From: a virus
Direction: 5' to 3' (one strand)
Length of the DNA: 41,549 bases
Virus record (IMG/VR): IMGVR_UViG_3300045988_064955
Every line of letters begins with the position of its first letter. The first letter of the stretch is position 1. Of the stretch, positions 20,200-30,385 are shown one piece after another. The translations under genes and the position numbers were made by a program. A model generated the notes under the pieces. That model was not told where the DNA came from, searched no databases, and worked only from the letters and a program-made list of their open reading frames with translations.

Positions 20200-21348
20200 T
20201 CAAACGTAATATATGGCTGTCGTATCATGATCCGAATATTCAATTAGCTCAAACGTCTTATGAGCCACAACTCCGAGATCATCTGTCCATTTGTCAGTAG
20301 GCTTTCTCGTGGACATCTGTCTTTGCACAAATCCCCCAAGGTCTTTACTCATTTCTGAATGTAAGTGCCCAGTTATCAGTTCGCGATTCTGTGCTGTGCC
20401 TAACATGAAGCCAAACTCATCTAGATATTTTGCAAGGTAGTTGTTCTTACCCTTGTCTCCGTGAGTAGCGCCAATGAAGTTATGGCCTAACATTGTGCCT
20501 TTGTAATGCTTCAGTGATATATCCCAAGTGATGTTCGACTGGTTGCTGTAGGCACGTTTCAATAGACGTGCAAACATATATCCAACTGACGGATCGTGGT
20601 TACCTGGCGCATACATGACCTCACACTCATTGGCGTTCTTAATGATTGCTTCTATCAGCGTCTCGAAGTATTGTTCCATTTCGTTCACAGTCTCGCCTAG
20701 GTCGGTTGTTTCGAGCTGTGTGCCCTTTGCTGTGGTCGAGTTGATATTATCCACATGAGCAAGATCACCGCCCAGAATAAGCAATACTTTGGCGTAGTGG
20801 CCGCGTTGAATGATCTCTAGCTGACGCTTAAGAGATTCCGCATAGATGTCGAATGTGTGACCGTTGAAATGCGTGTCGAAAGCAGGAATGACCAGATAGC
20901 GATCTGATTCCACAAAAATAGGAGCCTTAGCTTGATACGGCTCCTTGTGTGTGATGATGTCATTCATCAGCGATTCATATTGTTCTGCTTCAACTAACGG
21001 CCTGATTTGTATCTTGCTTTGATACAACGTTGCTTCAGGCGTCTGCTTCCAGAAGTTGCTTGTAGCACGTACAAGCTCCCACTTGGTGTAATCATACCCG
21101 TGAGCTTCCAGAACCTCTCTAGGCGTCATTTTGTGGCCCCTGACAACCTTTAGAATGGTTTCACTGGACTGTGTACCGTCTGAATCGTATTCATTCTTGA
21201 CTGGTTTTTGGAACTCGATGCCAAGCCGTCTTGCTTTACCTTGAAGCGCATCATAGCTAATCCCGAGTTTGTCGGCTGTCTCGCGTCTGGTAAAGCCTTC
21301 AGAGGCGAGCTTCCTAATGTCACCGATCTGTTCATCTGTCCATTGCAT
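20200..21348 (-). CDS. N-terminal HTH domain fused to a calcineurin-like metallophosphoesterase
   Basis: HTH: TRRETADKLGISYDALQGKARRLG. All five MPE motifs occur in order: FDTHFNG, LGGDLAHVD, APGNHD, GATHGD, TGHLHSE. Confidence 0.8.
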   Translation of the reverse strand: MQWTDEQIGDIRKLASEGFTRRETADKLGISYDALQGKARRLGIEFQKPVKNEYDSDGTQSSETILKVVRGHKMTPREVLEAHGYDYTKWELVRATSNFWKQTPEATLYQSKIQIRPLVEAEQYESLMNDIITHKEPYQAKAPIFVESDRYLVIPAFDTHFNGHTFDIYAESLKRQLEIIQRGHYAKVLLILGGDLAHVDNINSTTAKGTQLETTDLGETVNEMEQYFETLIEAIIKNANECEVMYAPGNHDPSVGYMFARLLKRAYSNQSNITWDISLKHYKGTMLGHNFIGATHGDKGKNNYLAKYLDEFGFMLGTAQNRELITGHLHSEMSKDLGGFVQRQMSTRKPTDKWTDDLGVVAHKTFELIEYSDHDTTAIYYV

Positions 21349-21461
21349 CTACTCGCCTCCTGAAATATAATGACCGTGAGCAGTTTGATGACGCTGCTCA
21401 CATTCTCATGAAGAACTTCCCGAGTTCTTAAGCCCTCGGATTAGGCCCCGAAAGCTTTTTT
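21343..21461 (+). ncRNA. Array A unit a: candidate small RNA transcription unit
   Basis: Promoter TTGCAT-N17-TATAAT (21343..21371) overlaps the RBS and start of the - strand gene. Perfect hairpins GTGAGCAG/CTGCTCAC (21376..21401) and AAGAACT/AGTTCTT (21411..21429). An imperfect terminator stem (21430..21457) is followed by a T6 run ending at 21461. Confidence 0.4.
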
Positions 21462-21516
21462 GTTGCTTAAAAAATTTCGATGAGTTAGAATTAAATTGTT
21501 CCCAACAGATACTCAT
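21406..21516 (-). CDS. Possible 36-aa basic peptide (competing explanation for part of array A)
   Basis: AAAGGAGTGAAAATG gives a strong RBS. The product reads MSICWEQFNSNSSKFFKQQKSFRGLIRGLKNSGSSS. It is below the track threshold and overlaps the predicted + strand units. Confidence 0.3.
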   Translation of the reverse strand: MSICWEQFNSNSSKFFKQQKSFRGLIRGLKNSGSSS

Positions 21517-21576
21517 TTTCACTCCTTTGTAATACCCTTTCTTTAGGCTCTCGGCCCCCAACCGAGGGCTATTTTT
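21463..21576 (+). ncRNA. Array A unit b: candidate small RNA transcription unit
   Basis: Promoter TTGCTT-N17-TAGAAT (21463..21491). Terminator stem 21546..21554 / 21562..21570 has 9 bp, two of them G:U that exist only in the + sense. T-run at 21572..21576. An exposed CACUCCUUU lies at 21520..21528. Confidence 0.45.
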
Positions 21577-21712
21577 GTATCTTCTATAAGGAATGTGCTA
21601 ATATATATGCGTGAGTAGTGTCTTTTCTCCTCCAAGTCAACCGCTGCTGCTCACACAAGTATTTCGTTTTTTCATTCTTTTGGCTCTTGGACTGGTCTCT
21701 GAGGGCTTTTTT
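21575..21712 (+). ncRNA. Array A unit c: candidate small RNA transcription unit (paralog of unit a)
   Basis: Promoter TTGTAT-N18-TGcTAATAT (21575..21604). Hairpin GTGAGTAG/CTGCTCAC (21611..21654) has CUCCUCC in its loop (21627..21633). The terminator at 21683..21706 has three G:U pairs that form only in the + sense. T6 run at 21707..21712. Confidence 0.45.
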
Positions 21713-21733
21713 AATCCGATTTATTGCTACATG

Positions 21734-21818
21734 TGTTATACTCTTTTTCGGTACCGTTGTTTCACCTCAGTAAACACCGGTAGCTAGGCCCTCAGTTAAT
21801 CGCTCAGAGGGCCTTTTT
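21734..21818 (+). ncRNA. Array A unit d: candidate small RNA transcription unit
   Basis: Extended -10 TGtTATACT (21734..21742). Hairpin CCGTTGTTT/AAACACCGG (21754..21780). Terminator GGCCCTC/GAGGGCC (21787..21813) is followed by T5 at 21814..21818. Confidence 0.45.
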
Positions 21819-21825
21819 GTTGCAC

Positions 21826-21856
21826 AAAAATAGCACCTCACCGTTTGGCGGAGTGC
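21826..21856 (-). terminator. Rho-independent terminator of the 286-aa orphan gene
   Basis: - sense GCACUCCGCC aaac GGUGAGGUGC uauuuuug. Two G:U pairs form only in the - sense. It lies about 30 nt after the stop at 21889. Confidence 0.6.
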
Positions 21857-21888
21857 TTTAGTAAATAAAAAGATGCCAAAGCGTCATA

Positions 21889-22749
21889 TTAGCTCTCTTG
21901 GTTTGTAGCACTAGATTTCGAAACGGCTGCCTTAAGCATATTCCCAGCATCGGTCGGACGTTCAGCATAAATTAACTCTGAAGGATTATTGGGATTAGCG
22001 TATGGTGGATTCAGCGTTCCCGAAATAAATTCAGCTAACTTATTTGATTCTAAATCAACGATTGCCATCTGGATGCTTGTCTTCTCAATGTTAGAAAAAA
22101 CTGGCACTTTGCTAAATGCGGTTGCTACCCATCCAGTATTGTCTCCCTGCACTCTACCATCTACAGCAATGAATGCTTTTGGTCCTGGAACTAACGGCCA
22201 ATGGTCTGAATTCCGAAGCAGAGTTAGAGCTAGCGGAGAACTTCTGTCTATTAAATTCAAAATGCTCTTGTTCTTAGAAAAAGTGCTTCCCCAATCTTTT
22301 TCATTTGCAAGATTACCCAGATAATCAGACATAATATCTAACATATCATCATCTGATGGAGCATCTGACAGTAGGGAGACTATTTTCGAATAGATACTCA
22401 GTCCGTACGGATTTGTGAGGAGAGAACTCAACCTGTGAAGGCCCTGCTCTTGATCATCGGTCTTTTGTAGATATTCTGCCAAAAGCAAAGTCTTCTTCAT
22501 GTCATCCAAACGGTCTTTTAAATGATCCCCCGTATCCACAAGATCAAGGATCAGATCTCCCCATTTGCCGTTTAAGACGTCTACCGCCAGCTGCTTTCCT
22601 TTCGACTTGGCAGTATCGACCACTGCTGACCTCACATCCTTACTATCAAGCTTTTTCTGCTCTATTCTCTTATCCAAGCTCATTTTCTCAGCATGCAAAA
22701 GATATTCTGGATGCTCAATCATGGCCCGAATTTCCGCTTTCTTGTCCAT
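21889..22749 (-). CDS. Orphan 286-aa protein, own transcription unit (moron-like); function unknown
   Basis: RBS GAGGTGAT lies 5 nt before the ATG, and the gene has its own terminator. It has a helical charged N-terminal half and no motif I recognise. It is flanked by non-coding RNA-like regions on both sides. Confidence 0.7.
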   Translation of the reverse strand: MDKKAEIRAMIEHPEYLLHAEKMSLDKRIEQKKLDSKDVRSAVVDTAKSKGKQLAVDVLNGKWGDLILDLVDTGDHLKDRLDDMKKTLLLAEYLQKTDDQEQGLHRLSSLLTNPYGLSIYSKIVSLLSDAPSDDDMLDIMSDYLGNLANEKDWGSTFSKNKSILNLIDRSSPLALTLLRNSDHWPLVPGPKAFIAVDGRVQGDNTGWVATAFSKVPVFSNIEKTSIQMAIVDLESNKLAEFISGTLNPPYANPNNPSELIYAERPTDAGNMLKAAVSKSSATNQES

Positions 22750-22869
22750 TTCGTATCACCTCACAAAAATAGTACCCCAGCATGAACTGGAATACTACAT
22801 TGAGGTGATTAAGTGAGCACTGCGCAGCCGTTTTCCGCCGGCCAATCTGGTGCACGTTTGATAGCGCAA

Positions 22870-22934
22870 TGTGGCATGCGGGAATCGAACCCGCCTGACT
22901 ATCTCAGCCAGTCCTCATTGCCACGCCTTGCCAC
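22870..22934 (-). other. tRNA-like fragment (canonical T-arm + acceptor 3' strand, anticodon-arm-like hairpin, no D-arm)
   Basis: - sense GTGGCAAggcGTGGCAAtgagGACTGgctgagaTAGTCagGCGGGTTCGATTCCCGCATGCCACa. The T-arm is perfect (GCGGG TTCGATT CCCGC). The acceptor pairs 6 of 7. There is no D-arm, only a 2-nt variable region, and C at position 33. Confidence 0.5.
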
Positions 22935-23036
22935 AGCTTTATCATCACTGAGGCTCGGAGGAAAAATGCGGTGTCTCAGGTTTCTCACCTTTGGCACAAT
23001 ACAATCATATGACGGAAAAGCGTGTTTTTTGTTGCA

Positions 23037-23489
23037 TCATTGTTGCACGGATGTTGCAACTAGTTTCACTAGCGGACATATTTCAGCAAAAGCATAGAGA
23101 GCTTCTTGTGTTTGTCGCCAAAGGGTCGTTCGGTCAACATGCAAGTGAGCGGCTAACTGAAGGCTGGATTTACGTGTCGTCTTTGGAGTCAGATAGCTCT
23201 CAACTAAGATGATGCGGTAGTCTTCATTCTCTATAGATTCAATAGCACCTTCACAGCACGCTATATAGTACAGCTCGTCAGCGTGCGATACGAGCTTGTC
23301 CTCGGCTTTATTTCCATAGCTGGGTGACTTGGGCATGCCGTCCATCACGGGGCTTCTGAGCGCTATTTTGGTGCGTTGAGCGAGCCGCTTGTGATGCCAG
23401 TAGTTCCCCAAGACCTCTTTGGCGTTTTCAATTGTTTTGTCATGATCAATTGGGCTAAAATATCTCGTTGCTCGCACCACTGCGTCCAC
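23037..23489 (-). CDS. arpU: ArpU-family late transcription regulator
   Basis: ..IDHDKTIENAKEVLGNYWHHKRLAQR.. plus a C-terminal sigma-r4-like ..LAAHLHVDRTTLWRQTQEALYAFAE. It sits at the early/late boundary. The real start is probably the GTG at 23480, 8 nt after AGGAG. Confidence 0.75.
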   Translation of the reverse strand: MDAVVRATRYFSPIDHDKTIENAKEVLGNYWHHKRLAQRTKIALRSPVMDGMPKSPSYGNKAEDKLVSHADELYYIACCEGAIESIENEDYRIILVESYLTPKTTRKSSLQLAAHLHVDRTTLWRQTQEALYAFAEICPLVKLVATSVQQ

Positions 23490-23495
23490 TCCTTA

Positions 23496-23560
23496 TGGTA
23501 TAATTAAATTTGTAAAAGTTTGGGGAAACGGCGTGCCGTAATGGTGCGCTTTTGTTTTTT
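23496..23560 (+). ncRNA. Array B unit 1: candidate small RNA transcription unit
   Basis: Consensus extended -10 TGgTATAAT (23496..23504) abuts the arpU RBS on the opposite strand. Terminator GCGTGCC/GGTGCGC (23531..23549) has two G:U pairs that form only in the + sense. T-rich run at 23550..23560. Confidence 0.45.
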
Positions 23561-23561
23561 G

Positions 23562-23630
23562 TGATATACTTGCTGTTCAAATAATTCGATTTGATAGACT
23601 GAGTCGTCCTGTTAATCCGGGGCGACTTTT
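23562..23630 (+). ncRNA. Array B unit 2: candidate small RNA transcription unit
   Basis: Extended -10 TGaTATACT (23562..23570). Terminator GTCGTCC/GGGGCGAC (23603..23626) has one G:U that forms only in the + sense. T4 run at 23627..23630. Confidence 0.4.
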
Positions 23631-23735
23631 GCTATACTACCTTTGGAGATGCTTTCTTATGCGTGTTAACCTTATAAGTTGGGGAACAATCTGATTCAAG
23701 CATCTCCCGCGCGTTGCTTATGTGACGCGCTTTTT
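23630..23735 (+). ncRNA. Array B unit 3: candidate small RNA transcription unit
   Basis: Extended -10 TGcTATACT (23630..23638). A perfect 10-bp stem GGAGATGCTT/AAGCATCTCC (23645..23707) encloses a 43-nt loop. Terminator GCGCGT/ACGCGC (23709..23730) is followed by T5. Confidence 0.45.
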
Positions 23736-23833
23736 GGTATACTGTATACGGAGGCCAAATCCTAATCTTTTATTTAATTCACTCTCAATCGTACGTCTGG
23801 CCTCCGGCGCGTCCTTCACCAGACGCGCTTTTT
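23735..23833 (+). ncRNA. Array B unit 4: candidate small RNA transcription unit (paralog of unit 3)
   Basis: Extended -10 TGgTATACT (23735..23743). A perfect 8-bp stem GGAGGCCA/TGGCCTCC (23750..23805) encloses a 40-nt loop. Terminator GCGCGTC/GACGCGC (23807..23828) is followed by T5. Confidence 0.45.
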
Positions 23834-23841
23834 GTTTACAA

Positions 23842-23913
23842 TCATTTTCCTCTTTTCCAGTTAGCCCACGCCCAAATTGCAGCACCTGAGATTAGCAGCA
23901 TTACGGCAATCAT
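23842..23913 (-). CDS. Possible 23-aa hydrophobic peptide coupled to yopX (ATGA overlap)
   Basis: Hand translation gives MIAVMLLISGAAIWAWANWKRGK. The ATG overlaps the YopX TGA. A weak + strand promoter-like TGtTTACAAT (23833..23842) would read antisense through it. Confidence 0.3.
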   Translation of the reverse strand: MIAVMLLISGAAIWAWANWKRGK

Positions 23914-24329
23914 TGCTTTCCCTCCAATAGCTGTTTGTCCTCAAAGATGTTTCCGATTACCTCGCACGTCTCAACACCTTCTTGAAAAATAGTTGCGAGT
24001 GCGTTTGCATCATAACTCCATGATGTCGGTATGCCTTCCAAATCAAATGCTGGGTAGTCCTCCTTGCCAAACCATTTTACTGTTGCTACATAAGATTCCC
24101 AGTCTTCTGACGTGACTTTCAGAATATCGCCTTCGTAGATTTCTCGGCCGTTCTTGTCTTTGAGCCCAGTGTATTGCATGAGTTCATAGCTATCCGCAAG
24201 TTGTAATTCTGCATCATACGCATCTTCGATAAGGCTCCATAATCCGCTTGGACCAAAATTCATAGCGGCAACATCAACCATCACTTTGTCTTTTTTGTTC
24301 CACGCTCTGAACTTAATCTCTCGTTTCAT
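23910..24329 (-). CDS. YopX family protein
   Basis: MKREIKFRAWNKKDKVM.. and ..QYTGLKDKNGREIYEGDIL.. are hallmark YopX sequences. Confidence 0.85.
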   Translation of the reverse strand: MKREIKFRAWNKKDKVMVDVAAMNFGPSGLWSLIEDAYDAELQLADSYELMQYTGLKDKNGREIYEGDILKVTSEDWESYVATVKWFGKEDYPAFDLEGIPTSWSYDANALATIFQEGVETCEVIGNIFEDKQLLEGKQ

Positions 24330-29555: not shown

Positions 29556-30385
29556 GCTTGTTGCCTCCGTTCATCGTATTCAGCAATGTAACGTTTAGCA
29601 TCTTCTGGATCGATCGGAATACCCTGCGCTTTGATTTCCTCAAGCACGCGATCTAGGCTGTTGTAATCAAGGTACATAGCGATGGCTGTTTGTTGCGGGT
29701 CAAACTTCGGCTTTCGAGCTTCCTGCTCATCTCGTTCTTCCTTTACGACCTCAAGGTAATCGTTCCATGACTCTTGGTTGAAGAAAGTACTACCGTCTTT
29801 GACAAACCGCTTCTCTGTGCCTTTGCTCTTGATTAGCTGTCGATAAGCCACAATGCCATCCTGAATTTGTTTGTTGGTAGCAGGGTTCTTCTTTCTACTC
29901 ATTGCTCGTTTGTAAGCAGCTAATGCTGGCTTCTTGCCGATCTTCTTTGGATACAGTTTCCAGAGCTTTTCAAAGTCACTCTCTAACGTGCTGGATGCAC
30001 GTATGTTTTTATTAATACTTGTATTATTCTCTTGCCCGTTTTTGGGCATAGGGTATACCCGTTTTTGGCTATAGGTATTACCATTTTTGGGCATAGGGTC
30101 TGTACGAATTTTGATATACCTTTTTTCAATTTCTTTGGTACCGTCTTTGTATTTGACATGACGTTCAATATATCCGCTGTCTTCTAAAGCACGTAGCCAT
30201 CTTTGTATAGTGGTTTGACCTACCTCGTACAAAGTCATAAAGTATTGATCGCTCGCCCAACAAGAGCCGCTCTTACTGCTGAGTGCCGTGATCTCGCCAT
30301 ACAAGATCTTGGCTCCTTGTGGTAGCTGTTTGTCATAGCGCACACCTGCTGGAATGATGGCATAGTAACTAGGGCTTTCATTCAT
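29552..30385 (-). CDS. Replication initiator / replisome organizer (winged-HTH N-terminus, DnaD-like C-terminus)
   Basis: The ATG at 30385 (MNESPSYYAIIPAGVRYDKQL..ILYGEITALS..TIQRWLRALEDSGYI) follows AAGGCGGTGA. It lies upstream of the helicase and contains internal DNA iterons. Confidence 0.75.
   Translation of the reverse strand: MNESPSYYAIIPAGVRYDKQLPQGAKILYGEITALSSKSGSCWASDQYFMTLYEVGQTTIQRWLRALEDSGYIERHVKYKDGTKEIEKRYIKIRTDPMPKNGNTYSQKRVYPMPKNGQENNTSINKNIRASSTLESDFEKLWKLYPKKIGKKPALAAYKRAMSRKKNPATNKQIQDGIVAYRQLIKSKGTEKRFVKDGSTFFNQESWNDYLEVVKEERDEQEARKPKFDPQQTAIAMYLDYNSLDRVLEEIKAQGIPIDPEDAKRYIAEYDERRQQA
30035..30098. repeat. Three direct ~22-23-bp iterons inside the initiator gene (candidate origin of replication)
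   Basis: cccgtttttgggcataggg (30035), cccgtttttggctataggt (30058) and accatttttgggcataggg (30080). They encode the PMPKNG..PMPKNG protein repeat. Confidence 0.6.

What the first reader, a model, noticed from the sequence alone, without database searches (positions are those of the whole stretch)
21343..23842. The late activator, a tRNA-like fragment and an orphan gene form a 2.5-kb island insulated on both sides by the antisense RNA arrays
Read in - strand order, the segment is:
- array B
- arpU
- tRNA-like fragment
- the 286-aa gene with its own RBS and its own - sense terminator
- array A
- the operon leading to cos and terS

About 1.2 kb of this 2.5-kb segment is non-coding, in a genome that otherwise packs genes with ATGA/TAATG overlaps.

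Both arrays have four units. Both begin with a + strand promoter placed directly against the start of the next - strand gene.

This symmetry suggests one regulatory device controlling the early-to-late switch, rather than random spacer DNA.
Basis: inference. Interest (0 to 1): 0.7.

Follow-up and report, generated by a model that had tools for sequence, protein, structure and literature searches.

The report
Antisense small-RNA gene arrays gating arpU
Two non-coding stretches of this Lacticaseibacillus phage are rows of tiny backward-facing RNA genes, and the one touching the start of the late-gene activator arpU recurs in phages of three bacterial genera, so it probably helps keep the lysis programme off until the phage commits.

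Summary
Both non-coding blocks (21349-21888 and 23481-23841) are tandem rows of four + strand units. Each unit has a sigma-70-type promoter, usually TGnTATAcT, then a 5'-terminal hairpin starting 7 nt after the -10, then an intrinsic terminator. All units are antisense to the - strand lytic genes.

The 2.5-kb segment is not inherited as a unit. Among about 70 relatives, array B has 1-6 units and array A has 0-5. The cargo between the arrays is mosaic.

The late promoter appears to lie inside the "island". Three 7-nt ArpU repeats and a -10 sit directly after arpU. The "tRNA-like fragment" is a conserved tRNA-like element without a D arm, located in the late leader.

The constant part is the first unit. 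Its perfect extended -10 lies 4-6 nt from the arpU ribosome-binding site and fires away from arpU. It is present in 55/60 Lacticaseibacillus, 26/29 Enterococcus and 17/19 Limosilactobacillus arpU loci. Published dRNA-seq of E. faecalis V583 maps an antisense start exactly there.

Best reading: constitutive cis-antisense RNAs and head-on promoters set a threshold on arpU, and here also on the packaging operon. This would be a new variant of OOP/sar-type control.

The parts
23496..23557 (+). Unit B1. Extended -10 TGGTATAAT at 23496-23504, predicted start about 23511, terminator stem 23531-23549 plus a T-run. The RNA is about 45 nt and antisense to the arpU leader at -31 to about -80.
   Evidence: Present at the same offset in 72/73 related upstream regions. 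The stem carries two G.U pairs, so it forms only on the + strand. Same geometry in Enterococcus and Limosilactobacillus phages. A homologous antisense start is mapped in E. faecalis V583.
23562..23631 (+). Unit B2. Extended -10 TGATATACT at 23562-70, 5' hairpin, terminator 23603-23626. The RNA is about 55 nt.
   Evidence: fold z = -3.75. Family F2, found in 21 loci and always at position 2.
23630..23736 (+). Unit B3. Extended -10 TGCTATACT at 23630-38. Stem P1 pairs 23645-54 with 23698-707 and encloses an open loop of about 43 nt. Terminator 23709-23730. The RNA is about 92 nt.
   Evidence: z = -5.67; family F3; compensatory changes in P1 relative to B4-type units.
23735..23834 (+). Unit B4. 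Extended -10 TGGTATACT at 23735-43. Stem P1 pairs 23750-57 with 23798-805 and encloses a 40-nt open loop. Terminator 23807-23828. The RNA is about 85 nt. Its T-run ends 7 nt from the stop codon of the upstream gene.
   Evidence: z = -5.46. Family F1 has 47 distinct sequences and 4 interior subtypes. P1 starts exactly 7 nt after the -10 in all members. Covariation.
21343..21462 (+). Unit A1. Promoter TTGCAT (21343-48), 17-nt spacer, TATAAT (21366-71), overlapping the start codon and Shine-Dalgarno of the exonuclease-like gene. 5' hairpin 21378-21399. Weaker terminator 21430-57 plus T6.
   Evidence: z = -3.57. TATAAT at this offset followed by a hairpin in about 60% of related loci. In iLp84-type phages the hairpin is directly followed by a T-run.
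21463..21576 (+). Unit A2. Promoter TTGCTT (21463-68), 17-nt spacer, TAGAAT (21486-91). Unstructured 5' part, then terminator 21546-21570.
   Evidence: The -10 and start resemble B1 (TAGAATTAAATT against TATAATTAAATT).
21596..21713 (+). Unit A3. Extended -10 TGCTAATAT at 21596-604, 5' hairpin starting at 21611, terminator 21683-21706.
   Evidence: Conserved in R23.9, R3.1 and BH1.
21734..21819 (+). Unit A4. Extended -10 TGTTATACT at 21734-42, 5' hairpin, terminator 21787-21813.
   Evidence: (z = -4.80).
21832..21857 (-). T2, the - strand intrinsic terminator after the 286-aa gene. It is a conserved junction block.
   Evidence: In Lrm1-type phages it directly abuts the ribosome-binding site of the exonuclease-like gene.
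21889..22749 (-). 286-aa gene of unknown function. It is variable cargo.
   Evidence: Matches phrog_15873 only. No Pfam, NCBIfam or PADLOC match. Other genes or tRNAs take its place in relatives.
22770..22797 (-). T1, a - strand terminator-like hairpin immediately upstream of the ribosome-binding site of the 286-aa gene. It is a conserved junction block.
22870..22935 (-). tRNA-like element without a D arm. It has an acceptor stem, an anticodon-like hairpin and a canonical T arm GGTTCGATTCC.
   Evidence: ARAGORN finds nothing. Rfam tRNA-Sec scores 25.5 bits against a gathering score of 47, E = 0.04. Present in 75/83 loci, with a compensatory T-stem change and an alternative allele of the same architecture.
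22867..23019 (-). Universally conserved 153-bp block holding the inferred late -10 (TATGAT, 23004-23009), a leader hairpin with a T-run, and the tRNA-like element.
   Evidence: Conserved at 95-99% in all nine reference phages even where arpU itself differs. Alignment.
23030..23058 (-). Three 7-nt direct repeats (TGCAACA on the - strand) spaced 11 bp apart, overlapping the end of arpU. This is the inferred ArpU operator of the late promoter.
   Evidence: the only cluster in the window. A2 has four GCGAACTA repeats and Lrm1 has two TGAGAC repeats at the same place. This matches the three 7-nt repeats shown to be required for ArpU activation in phiFL2A (PMC3753634).
23037..23480 (-). arpU, an ArpU-family late activator of 147 aa.
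   Evidence: TIGR01637, 46 bits, cutoff 43.1..

Best explanation
Each array is a row of independent, constitutively transcribed small-RNA genes on the strand opposite the lytic genes.

Host sigma-A RNA polymerase starts at an extended -10 promoter. It makes a 45-100-nt RNA whose 5' end is locked in a hairpin, and it stops at an intrinsic terminator. The T-run of that terminator often runs straight into the next promoter.

The first unit of each array has its -10 only 4-5 nt from the Shine-Dalgarno of the gene it faces. That gene is arpU for array B and the first gene of the exonuclease/HNH/terminase operon for array A.

Proposed mechanism (inferred, not shown):
1. In a lysogen, or early in infection, the antisense RNAs outnumber the few sense transcripts that reach arpU.
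2. The antisense RNAs pair with the sense leader, and the duplex is cut by RNase III.
3. Polymerases starting at these promoters also collide head-on with incoming polymerases.
4. Leaky or early transcription therefore cannot produce ArpU or packaging and lysis proteins.
5. When early transcription becomes strong, it overruns and silences the antisense promoters and titrates the RNAs. ArpU then appears abruptly.
6. Extra units raise or sharpen this threshold.
7. Each terminator keeps antisense transcription out of the neighbouring coding sequence.

What is shown: the signals, their strand, their conservation, the covariation in their stems, and an antisense start at the homologous place in E. 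faecalis V583.

What is inferred: transcription in this phage, the negative sign of the effect, and the RNase III and collision steps.
For: Clustering and coupling of signals:
- + strand terminators and extended -10 boxes cluster in the arrays.
- There are no - strand terminators or convincing - strand promoters inside the arrays.

Structure of the predicted RNAs:
- All eight fold into a terminator. Seven also have a 5' hairpin. Five have z-scores between -3.6 and -5.7.
- In B3/B4-type units the 5' stem starts exactly 7 nt after the -10 in 40 or more distinct sequences.

Covariation:
- 17 pairs are 88% paired, and 7 pairs show changes on both sides.
- The covariation score is 0.185 against 0.090 in shuffles (0 of 500 reach it). 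Slid controls give 0.06 or less.

Strand:
- U.G occurs in 10 of 25 sequences at one terminator pair.
- The B1 stem has two G.U pairs. On the - strand these would be A.C mismatches.

Conservation of the signals despite unrelated interiors:
- Every unit family keeps TTTTG-n-TATAcT.
- Unit number varies from 1 to 6, but B1 is present in 72/73 upstream regions.

Cross-genus conservation of the arpU-proximal unit:
- 55/60 Lacticaseibacillus loci.
- 26/29 Enterococcus loci, where ArpU is only about 29% identical.
- 17/19 Limosilactobacillus loci.
- Against 14/1200 random segments of the same loci.
- Promoter and terminator are conserved while the RNA body varies.

Experiment in a relative, dRNA-seq of E. 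faecalis V583 (PMC7724050 Suppl. Table 1):
- An enriched antisense start lies 35 nt upstream of the ArpU gene EF2024.
- Its upstream sequence is ...GCTCCTTTTATGGTATAATAATTTAT|A. The start is 7 nt after the -10, and the authors flag it as a putative asRNA.
- Three more + strand starts lie within the next 660 bp.

Geometry:
- The last terminator ends 3-7 nt from the stop codon of whatever gene lies upstream.
Against: - No transcript data exist for this phage or any Lacticaseibacillus relative in what I could search.
- The antisense RNAs do not cover the arpU Shine-Dalgarno or start codon, so direct translational block is unlikely. The sign of the effect could even be positive, for example processing that stabilises arpU mRNA.
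- Virulent or reduced relatives (PL-1, J-1, BH1) manage with a single unit. Many phages lack array A, so multi-unit arrays are dispensable.
- In R3.1 and BH1 one unit of array A is a protein-coding CsbD cassette. This fits autonomous cargo as well as it fits regulation.
- Open complexes are generally poor roadblocks, so the collision component is speculative.
Confidence: 0.5

Rival explanations
1. The RNAs act in trans. One version is an RNA-based incompatibility or immunity between related phages. A resident prophage's unit would silence arpU of any incoming or co-resident phage that carries the same unit in its arpU leader. The other version is prophage small RNAs that regulate host genes, in the manner of morons.
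For: - Promoters are constitutive-type and the homologous Enterococcus unit is active in a lysogen.
- Conserved scaffolds (promoter, P1 stem, terminator) enclose variable 40-50-nt open loops that come in discrete subtypes.
- B1 has two alleles that differ only in the single-stranded 5' part and are unlinked to ArpU type.
- All 6 pairs of co-resident prophages carry different B1 alleles. The chance expectation for this is about 0.014.
- A CsbD cassette sits in array A of relatives, showing that the site accepts lysogen-expressed cargo.
Against: - No complementarity above chance to any other part of this phage genome.
- Co-resident prophages do share identical distal units. An F4 unit is 100% identical in L049 and L087.
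- The sample of 6 pairs is small, and the B1 allele may simply be linked to the immunity region.
- The fixed position against the arpU ribosome-binding site across three genera points to a cis role. Host targets could not be searched.
Confidence: 0.2
2. The units are passive. They would be leftover promoter/terminator ends of past antisense-oriented moron insertions, or simple protective terminators at module junctions. They would be kept because conserved junction sequences promote module exchange, and they would have no effect on arpU or late genes.
For: - The region is a mosaic hot spot. Conserved short junction blocks flank variable cargo.
- Unit content changes by whole units.
- A protein-coding cassette occupies one slot in relatives.
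- Arrays are dispensable in several viable phages.
Against: - Debris would not keep perfect extended -10 boxes, a fixed 7-nt spacing to a 5' stem, and compensatory stem changes across families.
- Debris would not keep the proximal unit at the same few nucleotides from the arpU Shine-Dalgarno in three genera with only about 29% identical ArpU.
Confidence: 0.12
3. The functional molecule is the - strand leader RNA. The hairpins would structure the long 5' UTRs of arpU and of the packaging operon for stability, processing or terminator read-through. The + strand promoter and terminator look-alikes would be incidental.
For: - Most stems can form on either strand.
- The late path contains two - strand terminators (T1, T2) that must somehow be passed.
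- A universally conserved leader lies nearby.
Against: - G.U pairs are placed so that stems weaken on the - strand.
- T-runs follow the hairpins only on the + strand.
- TGnTATAAT is conserved with no role on the - strand.
- A + strand start is mapped experimentally at the homologous site in V583.
Confidence: 0.06
4. The units are antitoxin RNAs of type I toxin-antitoxin modules whose small toxin genes lie on the - strand.
For: - The layout is convergent small RNAs with a 5' stem and a terminator, on a prophage.
- A 23-aa hydrophobic ORF (23842-23913) ends 7 nt from the B4 terminator.
- A 36-aa ORF with a good AAGGAG lies opposite unit A2.
Against: - The 23-aa ORF is translationally coupled (ATGA) to YopX. 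In most relatives it is replaced by an HTH protein or other genes.
- The 36-aa ORF is hydrophilic, evolves with many non-synonymous changes and has occasional stops.
- No ORF accompanies B1-B3.
- Neither small ORF has a Pfam match.
Confidence: 0.03

Closest known systems
Cis-antisense small RNAs of temperate phages: lambda OOP (against cII), P22 sar (against ant), P1/P7 c4 and P4 CI RNAs
   Same: These are short RNAs of about 45-100 nt. Each is made from its own constitutive promoter on the strand opposite a key developmental regulator and ends at an intrinsic terminator. They act on the sense transcript and help separate lysogenic from lytic expression. In P1/P7, allelic differences in a short recognition stretch give specificity, which parallels the two B1 alleles. 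The comparison rests on my own knowledge of these systems.
   Different: - The target here is the ArpU-family late activator of Gram-positive phages.
- The RNA covers the leader at -31 to about -80, not the ribosome-binding site or the coding end.
- Units are multiplied into arrays of up to six independent genes. A second array stands before the packaging operon.
- No functional test exists.
Transcriptional interference between convergent promoters (coliphage 186 pR/pL; lambda PR/PRE)
   Same: Head-on promoters at a developmental switch, where the stronger flow of polymerase silences the weaker promoter. This would give the threshold behaviour proposed here (own knowledge).
   Different: Here the antisense transcripts are terminated after 45-100 nt and re-initiated by the next unit. 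The overlap is built from several short units rather than one long convergent transcript.
Tandem small-RNA gene families in Firmicutes (Listeria LhrC1-5, streptococcal csRNAs)
   Same: Several autonomous small-RNA genes lie side by side. Each has its own promoter and terminator, and each carries pyrimidine-rich CCUCC-like stretches (own knowledge).
   Different: Those are chromosomal, trans-acting paralogues with a conserved seed. Here the interiors are the most variable part, the CCUCC is paired in stem P1, and the position relative to arpU is what is conserved.
Morons (promoter-gene-terminator cassettes inserted between phage genes)
   Same: Autonomous cassettes sit between essential phage genes and are gained and lost as units. 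One slot in relatives holds a CsbD protein gene.
   Different: The cargo here is a non-coding RNA. The orientation is always antisense. The first unit is fixed to the ribosome-binding site of a regulator across genera.
Ltr/ArpU/RinA late-promoter organisation (Quiles-Puchalt et al. 2013, PMC3753634)
   Same: Three 7-nt direct repeats lie immediately at the end of the activator gene, followed by the late promoter and a leader. The repeats are cognate to each regulator variant.
   Different: That work describes the region downstream of the activator gene. An antisense small-RNA gene abutting the activator's own ribosome-binding site is not mentioned there or in any paper I could find.

Membership tests
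Cis-encoded antisense RNA regulators (OOP/sar type) | Own promoter on the strand opposite the target gene | tested here: met
   Perfect or near-perfect extended -10 boxes on the + strand. They are conserved across unit families and genera. The homologous promoter in E. faecalis V583 has a mapped start 7 nt after the -10. Not measured in this phage.
Cis-encoded antisense RNA regulators (OOP/sar type) | Defined short transcript ending at an intrinsic terminator | tested here: met
   Strand-specific hairpin plus T-run after every promoter. Stem covariation and G.U placement. This is prediction only.
Cis-encoded antisense RNA regulators (OOP/sar type) | A sense transcript overlaps the antisense RNA | tested here: inconclusive
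   No - strand terminator or promoter lies between the upstream early gene and arpU, so read-through is expected. In V583 the arpU 5' UTRs of 144 and 293 nt overlap the antisense start. There are no data for this phage.
Cis-encoded antisense RNA regulators (OOP/sar type) | The antisense RNA changes expression of the target | not testable with these tools
   Needs reporter fusions, -10 mutants and an RNase III mutant.
Type I toxin-antitoxin | Small toxic (usually hydrophobic) peptide gene overlapped by the RNA and conserved with it | tested here: not met
   Upstream partner genes differ among relatives. The 36-aa ORF is hydrophilic and poorly constrained. B1-B3 face no ORF. No Pfam match.
Type III toxin-antitoxin (ToxI-like) arrays | Near-identical short tandem repeats followed by an endoribonuclease toxin gene | tested here: not met
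   Tandem Repeats Finder reports nothing in either array. The units differ in sequence and each has its own promoter and terminator.
RNA anti-CRISPRs / solitary CRISPR repeat units | Sequence similarity to host CRISPR repeats | tested here: not met
   The four repeat types of the L. casei group were taken from PMC7156538. They align to the arrays no better than to the rest of the window.
Any curated RNA family (Rfam 15) | Score at or above the gathering threshold | tested here: not met
   No match in the window at gathering thresholds. Only chance-level matches in the arrays at E up to 10.
tRNA (for the element at 22870-22935) | Complete cloverleaf with a D arm and an anticodon loop carrying U33 | tested here: not met
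   ARAGORN finds no tRNA in the window. Rfam tRNA-Sec scores 25.5 bits against a gathering score of 47. The D arm is absent and the loop is NNNGATA with G at position 33. An acceptor stem and T arm are present.
ArpU/Ltr late activator with cognate repeats | Protein matches the ArpU family model | tested here: met
   TIGR01637 at 46 bits, cutoff 43.1. No Pfam match at E of 0.01 or below.
ArpU/Ltr late activator with cognate repeats | Direct 7-nt repeats immediately distal to the activator gene, specific to the regulator variant | tested here: met
   Three TGCAACA repeats spaced 11 bp apart at 23030-23058. Different repeats accompany the different regulator variants in A2 and Lrm1. The criterion is from PMC3753634. 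Binding and activation were not testable.
Morons | Autonomous promoter-cargo-terminator cassette between phage genes, gained or lost as a unit | tested here: met
   Unit-wise presence and absence. A CsbD cassette occupies one slot. Expression in the lysogen is shown only for the Enterococcus homologue.

The most novel reading that the evidence does not exclude
The arrays would be a modular RNA-based incompatibility system. Every unit would be both a weapon and a target. The weapon is the + strand RNA made constitutively by a resident prophage. The target is its complement in the arpU leader of any related phage.

A lysogen would thereby block late-gene activation of superinfecting or co-resident relatives that share a unit. 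The allelic 5' tail of B1 and the loop subtypes would then act as specificity determinants under diversifying selection.

The evidence does not exclude this. It is hinted at by the discordant B1 alleles in all 6 pairs of co-resident prophages.
Probability: 0.15. Interest if true: 0.8.

Novelty: new variant of a known kind. Interest (0 to 1): 0.62.

Why it matters
ArpU/RinA-type activators are the master switch for packaging and lysis in a very large group of temperate phages of Gram-positive bacteria. They also control transfer of mobile islands. How their own expression is delayed, and kept silent in lysogens, has been attributed only to the CI repressor.

A conserved antisense RNA gene touching the arpU ribosome-binding site is found in phages of Lacticaseibacillus, Limosilactobacillus and Enterococcus. 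In this phage group it is expandable into arrays. It would add an RNA-level threshold to that switch.

The idea is directly testable with a handful of point mutations. It is relevant to prophage stability in probiotic and dairy strains. It also offers compact promoter-terminator insulator parts for lactic acid bacteria.

Tried and rejected
- **CRISPR-repeat mimicry (RNA anti-CRISPR).** I noticed a loose resemblance of unit B2 to the type II-A repeat. I took the four repeat types from PMC7156538 and aligned them in both orientations. Scores were within the background of the window. Rejected.
- **Trans targets inside the phage.** All 119 distinct units were searched against the whole window. Only chance-level matches of 10-15 nt appeared.
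- **Known RNA families.** Rfam found nothing at gathering thresholds. At E up to 10, only the sub-threshold tRNA-like match was meaningful.
- **Tandem DNA repeats or iterons in the arrays.** None. Short repeats between the arrays are terminator and promoter look-alikes.
- **Type I toxin-antitoxin.** There is no conserved peptide partner.
- **Coding potential of the units on the + strand.** Only an 11-aa frame in B3, and frames without stop codons elsewhere. These were read and not pursued.
- **A sense-strand promoter explanation for TGnTATAAT.** The reverse complement is a poor -10 in Lacticaseibacillus and L. reuteri.
- **Plasmids.** Array B matches only phage-sized Lacticaseibacillus episomes.
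- **The word-indexed protein search** returned only close ArpU relatives. Distant loci were reached instead by tblastn against phage records and separate viral-contig scans.
- **Two scripts needed repeating.** mis-assigned loci. One search timed out and was rerun with a coarser terminator scan, then redone uniformly.
- **Literature.** Searches for ArpU together with antisense or small-RNA terms found no description of this element.

Full report
**What the window is**

The segment lies in a temperate siphophage of the Lacticaseibacillus casei/paracasei/rhamnosus group. It is related in mosaic fashion to A2, Lrm1, Lc-Nu, iLp84, PL-1, BH1 and the R3.1/R23.9 series. There are 45 matching phage records, but only one covers at least 80% of 21200-24000. 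The lytic genes run on the - strand.

**Check of the observation**

- A YopX gene (23910-24329), with a 23-aa ORF (23842-23913) coupled to it through an ATGA overlap.
- A 361-bp non-coding block, array B (23481-23841).
- arpU (23037-23480). The plausible start is the GTG at 23480, 8 nt after AAGGAG.
- 287 bp holding a tRNA-like sequence.
- A 286-aa gene (21889-22749) with its own ribosome-binding site. It has terminator-like hairpins before it (22770-22797) and after it (21832-21857).
- A 540-bp block, array A (21349-21888).
- A 382-aa gene with a GcrA-like HTH and a metallophosphatase domain.

Non-coding DNA totals 1188 bp.

A consensus scan finds six terminator-like sites in 21000-24200, against 2.7 ± 1.9 in shuffles. 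Five of them are on the + strand inside the arrays.

My own window-wide scan gives three results:
- 7 of 14 + strand terminators fall in the 910 bp of the two arrays. The expectation is 0.16 (P = 4e-10).
- 8 extended -10 matches (TGnTAnnnT) fall there against 1.1 expected (P = 3e-5).
- The three cases where a terminator T-run runs directly into an extended -10 are all in array B.

Each array has four units. The first -10 of each array lies 4-5 nt from the reverse-complemented Shine-Dalgarno of the next - strand gene.

The 286-aa protein belongs to phrog_15873 (function unknown) and occurs in several relatives, so it is not an orphan. The tRNA-like sequence is not a decayed fragment, as explained below.

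**Anatomy of a unit**

In six of the eight units a hairpin begins at the seventh nucleotide after the -10. That is the expected transcription start.

B3 and B4 have an 8-10-bp terminal stem (GGAGAUGC/GCAUCUCC and GGAGGCCA/UGGCCUCC). The stem encloses an open AU-rich loop of 40-43 nt, and the terminator follows immediately. Fold energies are far below those of shuffled sequences for B2, B3, B4, A1 and A4, with z from -3.6 to -5.7.

A 5'-terminal stem plus a 3' terminator is the classic design of a stable small RNA in Firmicutes. That statement rests on my own knowledge.

**Relatives: the units are real, and they are modular**

I collected nine annotated phages, three genomic loci and 80 viral contigs encoding close ArpU relatives.

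Upstream of arpU, 72 of 73 distinct sequences carry unit B1 at the same offset. The number of consecutive antisense promoter/terminator units ranges from 1 to 6. The counts are 20, 21, 10, 15, 5 and 1 sequences respectively.

The 222 units fall into a few families:
- B1 is always first.
- B2 and B3 occupy fixed positions.
- The B4 type has 47 distinct sequences and sits at positions 2-6, usually last.
- Two families are absent from this window.

Families with unrelated interiors all keep TTTTG-n-TATAcT, the 7-nt spacing, a terminal stem and a GC-rich terminator. The terminal stem changes by compensation. Examples are GGAGGCC/GGCCUCC, GGAGGCAG/CUGCCUCC, GGAGAUGC/GCAUCUCC, GGAGGCAUU/AGUGCCUCC and GAAGAUGG/CUGUCUUC.

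I ran a formal count on 25 distinct sequences:
- 88% of cells are paired.
- 7 of 17 pairs have changes on both sides.
- The covariation score is 0.185 against 0.090 ± 0.010 in shuffles (0 of 500 reach it). It is at most 0.06 when partners are slid.

The strand is the + strand. U.G occurs in 10 of 25 sequences at one terminator pair, and the B1 stem has two G.U pairs. These would be A.C mismatches on the - strand. T-runs follow the hairpins only on the + strand.

**Array A in relatives**

About 60% of loci have TATAAT against the ribosome-binding site of the exonuclease-like gene, followed by a hairpin. In the remaining loci, terminator T2 or another ORF abuts that site.

Counting + strand terminators up to T2 gives 0 units in 25 of 62 loci and 1-5 units in the others. 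The number correlates with that of array B (rho = 0.58). This figure is not corrected for shared ancestry.

In R3.1 and BH1 one slot of array A is a + strand CsbD-family protein gene with its own promoter and terminator. Its Pfam CsbD score is 47.9 bits. The arrays are therefore rows of autonomous antisense-oriented cassettes.

**The island is not a unit, and the late promoter is inside it**

Block-wise comparison shows short conserved junctions separating variable cargo. The junctions are 22867-23019, 22747-22809 and 21807-21885.

Three 7-nt repeats (TGCAACA on the - strand) spaced 11 bp apart overlap the end of arpU. This is the only such cluster in the window. Phages with other regulator variants have other repeats at the same place: four GCGAACTA in A2 and two TGAGAC in Lrm1, Lc-Nu and PL-1. 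In all of them the repeats are followed by the same -10 (TATGAT or TATTAT) and leader.

This is the organisation shown experimentally for RinA, LtrC and ArpU. In phiFL2A it includes three 7-nt repeats that are required for activation (PMC3753634).

I therefore place the late promoter at about 23058-22997. Everything from the tRNA-like element down to array A would then lie inside the late transcript path. That path includes two - strand terminators that must be read through.

**The tRNA-like element**

ARAGORN finds no tRNA in the window. Rfam gives a sub-threshold tRNA-Sec match of 25.5 bits, E = 0.04.

The element has an acceptor stem, an anticodon-like hairpin whose loop is NNNGATA, and a canonical T arm. 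It has no D arm.

It sits in the universally conserved 153-bp block and is present in 75 of 83 loci. It shows a compensatory T-stem change (GCGGG/CCCGC to GUGGG/CCCAC). A different sequence of the same architecture replaces it in three loci.

Relatives carry real tRNA genes just downstream: Ile in iLp84, Leu in A2 and Met in Lrm1.

**The part that is conserved beyond this phage group**

ArpU homologues of only about 29% identity are preceded by the same device. This holds in Enterococcus phages phiFL3A, phiEf11 and phiFL2A and in L. reuteri phage LR1. The device is a perfect TGnTATAAT placed 4-6 nt from the reverse-complemented Shine-Dalgarno, firing away from arpU, with a terminator 20-60 nt later. 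phiFL3A has two such units in tandem. A streptococcal phage lacks the device.

I applied one criterion to all distinct upstream regions. The unit is present in:
- 55/60 Lacticaseibacillus loci
- 26/29 Enterococcus loci
- 17/19 Limosilactobacillus loci
- 14/1200 random 170-nt segments of the same loci

Promoter and terminator are conserved, while the RNA body comes in several alleles.

**Experimental support from the literature**

Supplementary Table 1 of the dRNA-seq study of E. faecalis V583 (PMC7724050) covers EF2024, an ArpU-family regulator on the - strand with its start codon at 1952842.

The table lists an enriched + strand start at 1952877. It is classified as antisense and as a putative asRNA. 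Its upstream sequence is ...GCTCCTTTTATGGTATAATAATTTAT|A. This is one of the Enterococcus variants I had extracted, and the start lies 7 nt after the -10 as predicted.

Further + strand starts follow at 1953002, 1953273 (a very strong one behind TGGTATAAT) and 1953538. Two weak sense starts give arpU leaders of 144 and 293 nt that overlap the antisense starts. A row of antisense starts in front of arpU is thus active in a growing lysogen of a related system.

I found no paper that discusses this element.

**How it most likely works**

Shown:
- strand-specific promoter and terminator signals
- their conservation and covariation
- their fixed geometry against two ribosome-binding sites
- an antisense start in a homologous prophage

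Inferred: the RNAs are made constitutively. They pair with the sense leader of arpU at -31 to about -350, and with the leader of the exonuclease/terminase operon. Pairing leads to cleavage or decay of low-level sense transcripts. Head-on initiation adds interference. Strong early transcription overruns the antisense promoters and titrates the RNAs. The result would be a sharp, delayed onset of ArpU and a fail-safe against leaky lysis in lysogens. The terminators confine antisense transcription to the spacer. The last one ends 3-7 nt from the upstream stop codon.

I give this 0.5. The sign of the effect is not established, because the RNAs do not cover the Shine-Dalgarno.

**Rivals**

- A trans role is not excluded and has one intriguing hint. 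B1 has two alleles that differ only in the single-stranded 5' part and are unlinked to ArpU type. All six pairs of co-resident prophages carry different alleles, with a chance expectation of about 0.014. Against it, no trans target exists in the phage, and co-resident prophages share identical distal units.
- Passive debris is hard to reconcile with the cross-genus conservation.
- A - strand leader function is contradicted by the G.U placement and by the mapped + strand start.
- Type I toxin-antitoxin, type III arrays and CRISPR-repeat mimics fail their defining features.

**Verdict**

Its "insulated island" framing, however, is wrong.

The closest known kind is cis-antisense RNA control of phage developmental regulators (OOP, sar, c4), combined with convergent-promoter interference. 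Three things are new:
- the target, which is the ArpU-family late activator
- the fixed promoter-against-RBS geometry conserved across three genera
- the expansion into variable arrays of up to six independent units, with a second array before the packaging operon

I rate it a new variant of a known kind, with interest 0.62.

**Limits**

- There are no transcript data for this phage.
- Terminators and starts are predictions.
- The loci are related, so counts and P values overstate independence.
- The Enterococcus evidence shows transcription, not function.

Noticed in passing
window 23030-23058 and 23004-23009 (- strand); L003, L004, L006, L008: Three TGCAACA repeats spaced 11 bp apart overlap the end of arpU, followed by a conserved -10 (TATGAT). 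Phages with other regulator variants carry different repeats at the same place (four GCGAACTA in A2, two TGAGAC in Lrm1, Lc-Nu and PL-1). This looks like a set of cognate activator/operator pairs on an otherwise identical late promoter.
   Followed up: partly
window 22867-23019 (- strand); 75 of 83 related loci: A 153-bp late leader is 95-99% conserved in all relatives, whatever flanks it. It holds a hairpin with a T-run and a tRNA-like element without a D arm. That element has a compensatory T-stem change, and in three loci an alternative allele of the same architecture. It may be an RNase P/Z processing signal or part of a read-through device. Function unknown.
   Followed up: partly
window 22770-22797 and 21832-21857 (- strand): Two strong - strand terminator-like hairpins lie between the inferred late promoter and terS. 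In Lrm1-type phages the second directly abuts the ribosome-binding site of the exonuclease-like gene. Late transcription must read through them or restart, which suggests attenuation or antitermination.
   Followed up: no
window 21406-21516 (- strand): A 36-aa ORF (MSICWEQFNSNSSKFFKQQK...) with AAGGAG 5 nt upstream lies exactly opposite the unstructured 5' part of unit A2. The start and N-terminal 20 residues are kept in many relatives, but with many non-synonymous changes and occasional stops. It is doubtful as a gene.
   Followed up: partly
window 23842-23913 (- strand): A 23-aa hydrophobic ORF (MIAVMLLISGAAIWAWANWKRGK) is coupled by an ATGA overlap to the YopX stop codon. It ends 7 nt from the last terminator of array B. 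In most relatives other genes take its place.
   Followed up: partly
L005 1075-1293 (+), L009 3419-3718 (+): R3.1 and BH1 carry a CsbD-family stress-protein gene, with its own promoter and terminator, as one extra + strand unit inside array A. In BH1 the frame is extended at its end.
   Followed up: yes
B1 units of L020/L025, L053/L057, L049/L087, L045/L086, L040/L092, L011/L012: The arpU-proximal RNA has two alleles that differ only in the single-stranded 5' part. All six pairs of prophages from the same genome carry one of each, with a chance expectation of about 0.014. The alleles are not linked to ArpU type.
   Followed up: partly
L012 unit 2 (terminator GCGCGTCTGGTGAAGGACGCGC): This terminator is the exact reverse complement of the usual B4-type terminator (GCGCGTCCTTCACCAGACGCGC). 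It is a hairpin inverted in place.
   Followed up: no
E. faecalis V583 1953273 (+), from PMC7724050 Suppl. Table 1: An extremely strong antisense start (step height 92,897) behind TGGTATAAT lies opposite EF2025, 430 nt upstream of the ArpU gene. The authors' sRNA_027, encoded at 532 kb, is predicted to pair with EF2025 over 68 nt. This suggests a related RNA copy elsewhere in that genome.
   Followed up: no
window 30035-30099: Tandem repeat of 22 bp in 2.9 copies (CCCGTTTTTGGGCATAGGGTATA). It may be iterons of the replication origin.
   Followed up: no
window 20200-21348 (- strand): The first gene after array A combines an N-terminal GcrA-like HTH (28 bits) with a metallophosphatase/exonuclease domain. 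It is annotated as a DNA repair exonuclease in relatives and is split into two ORFs in A2.
   Followed up: no
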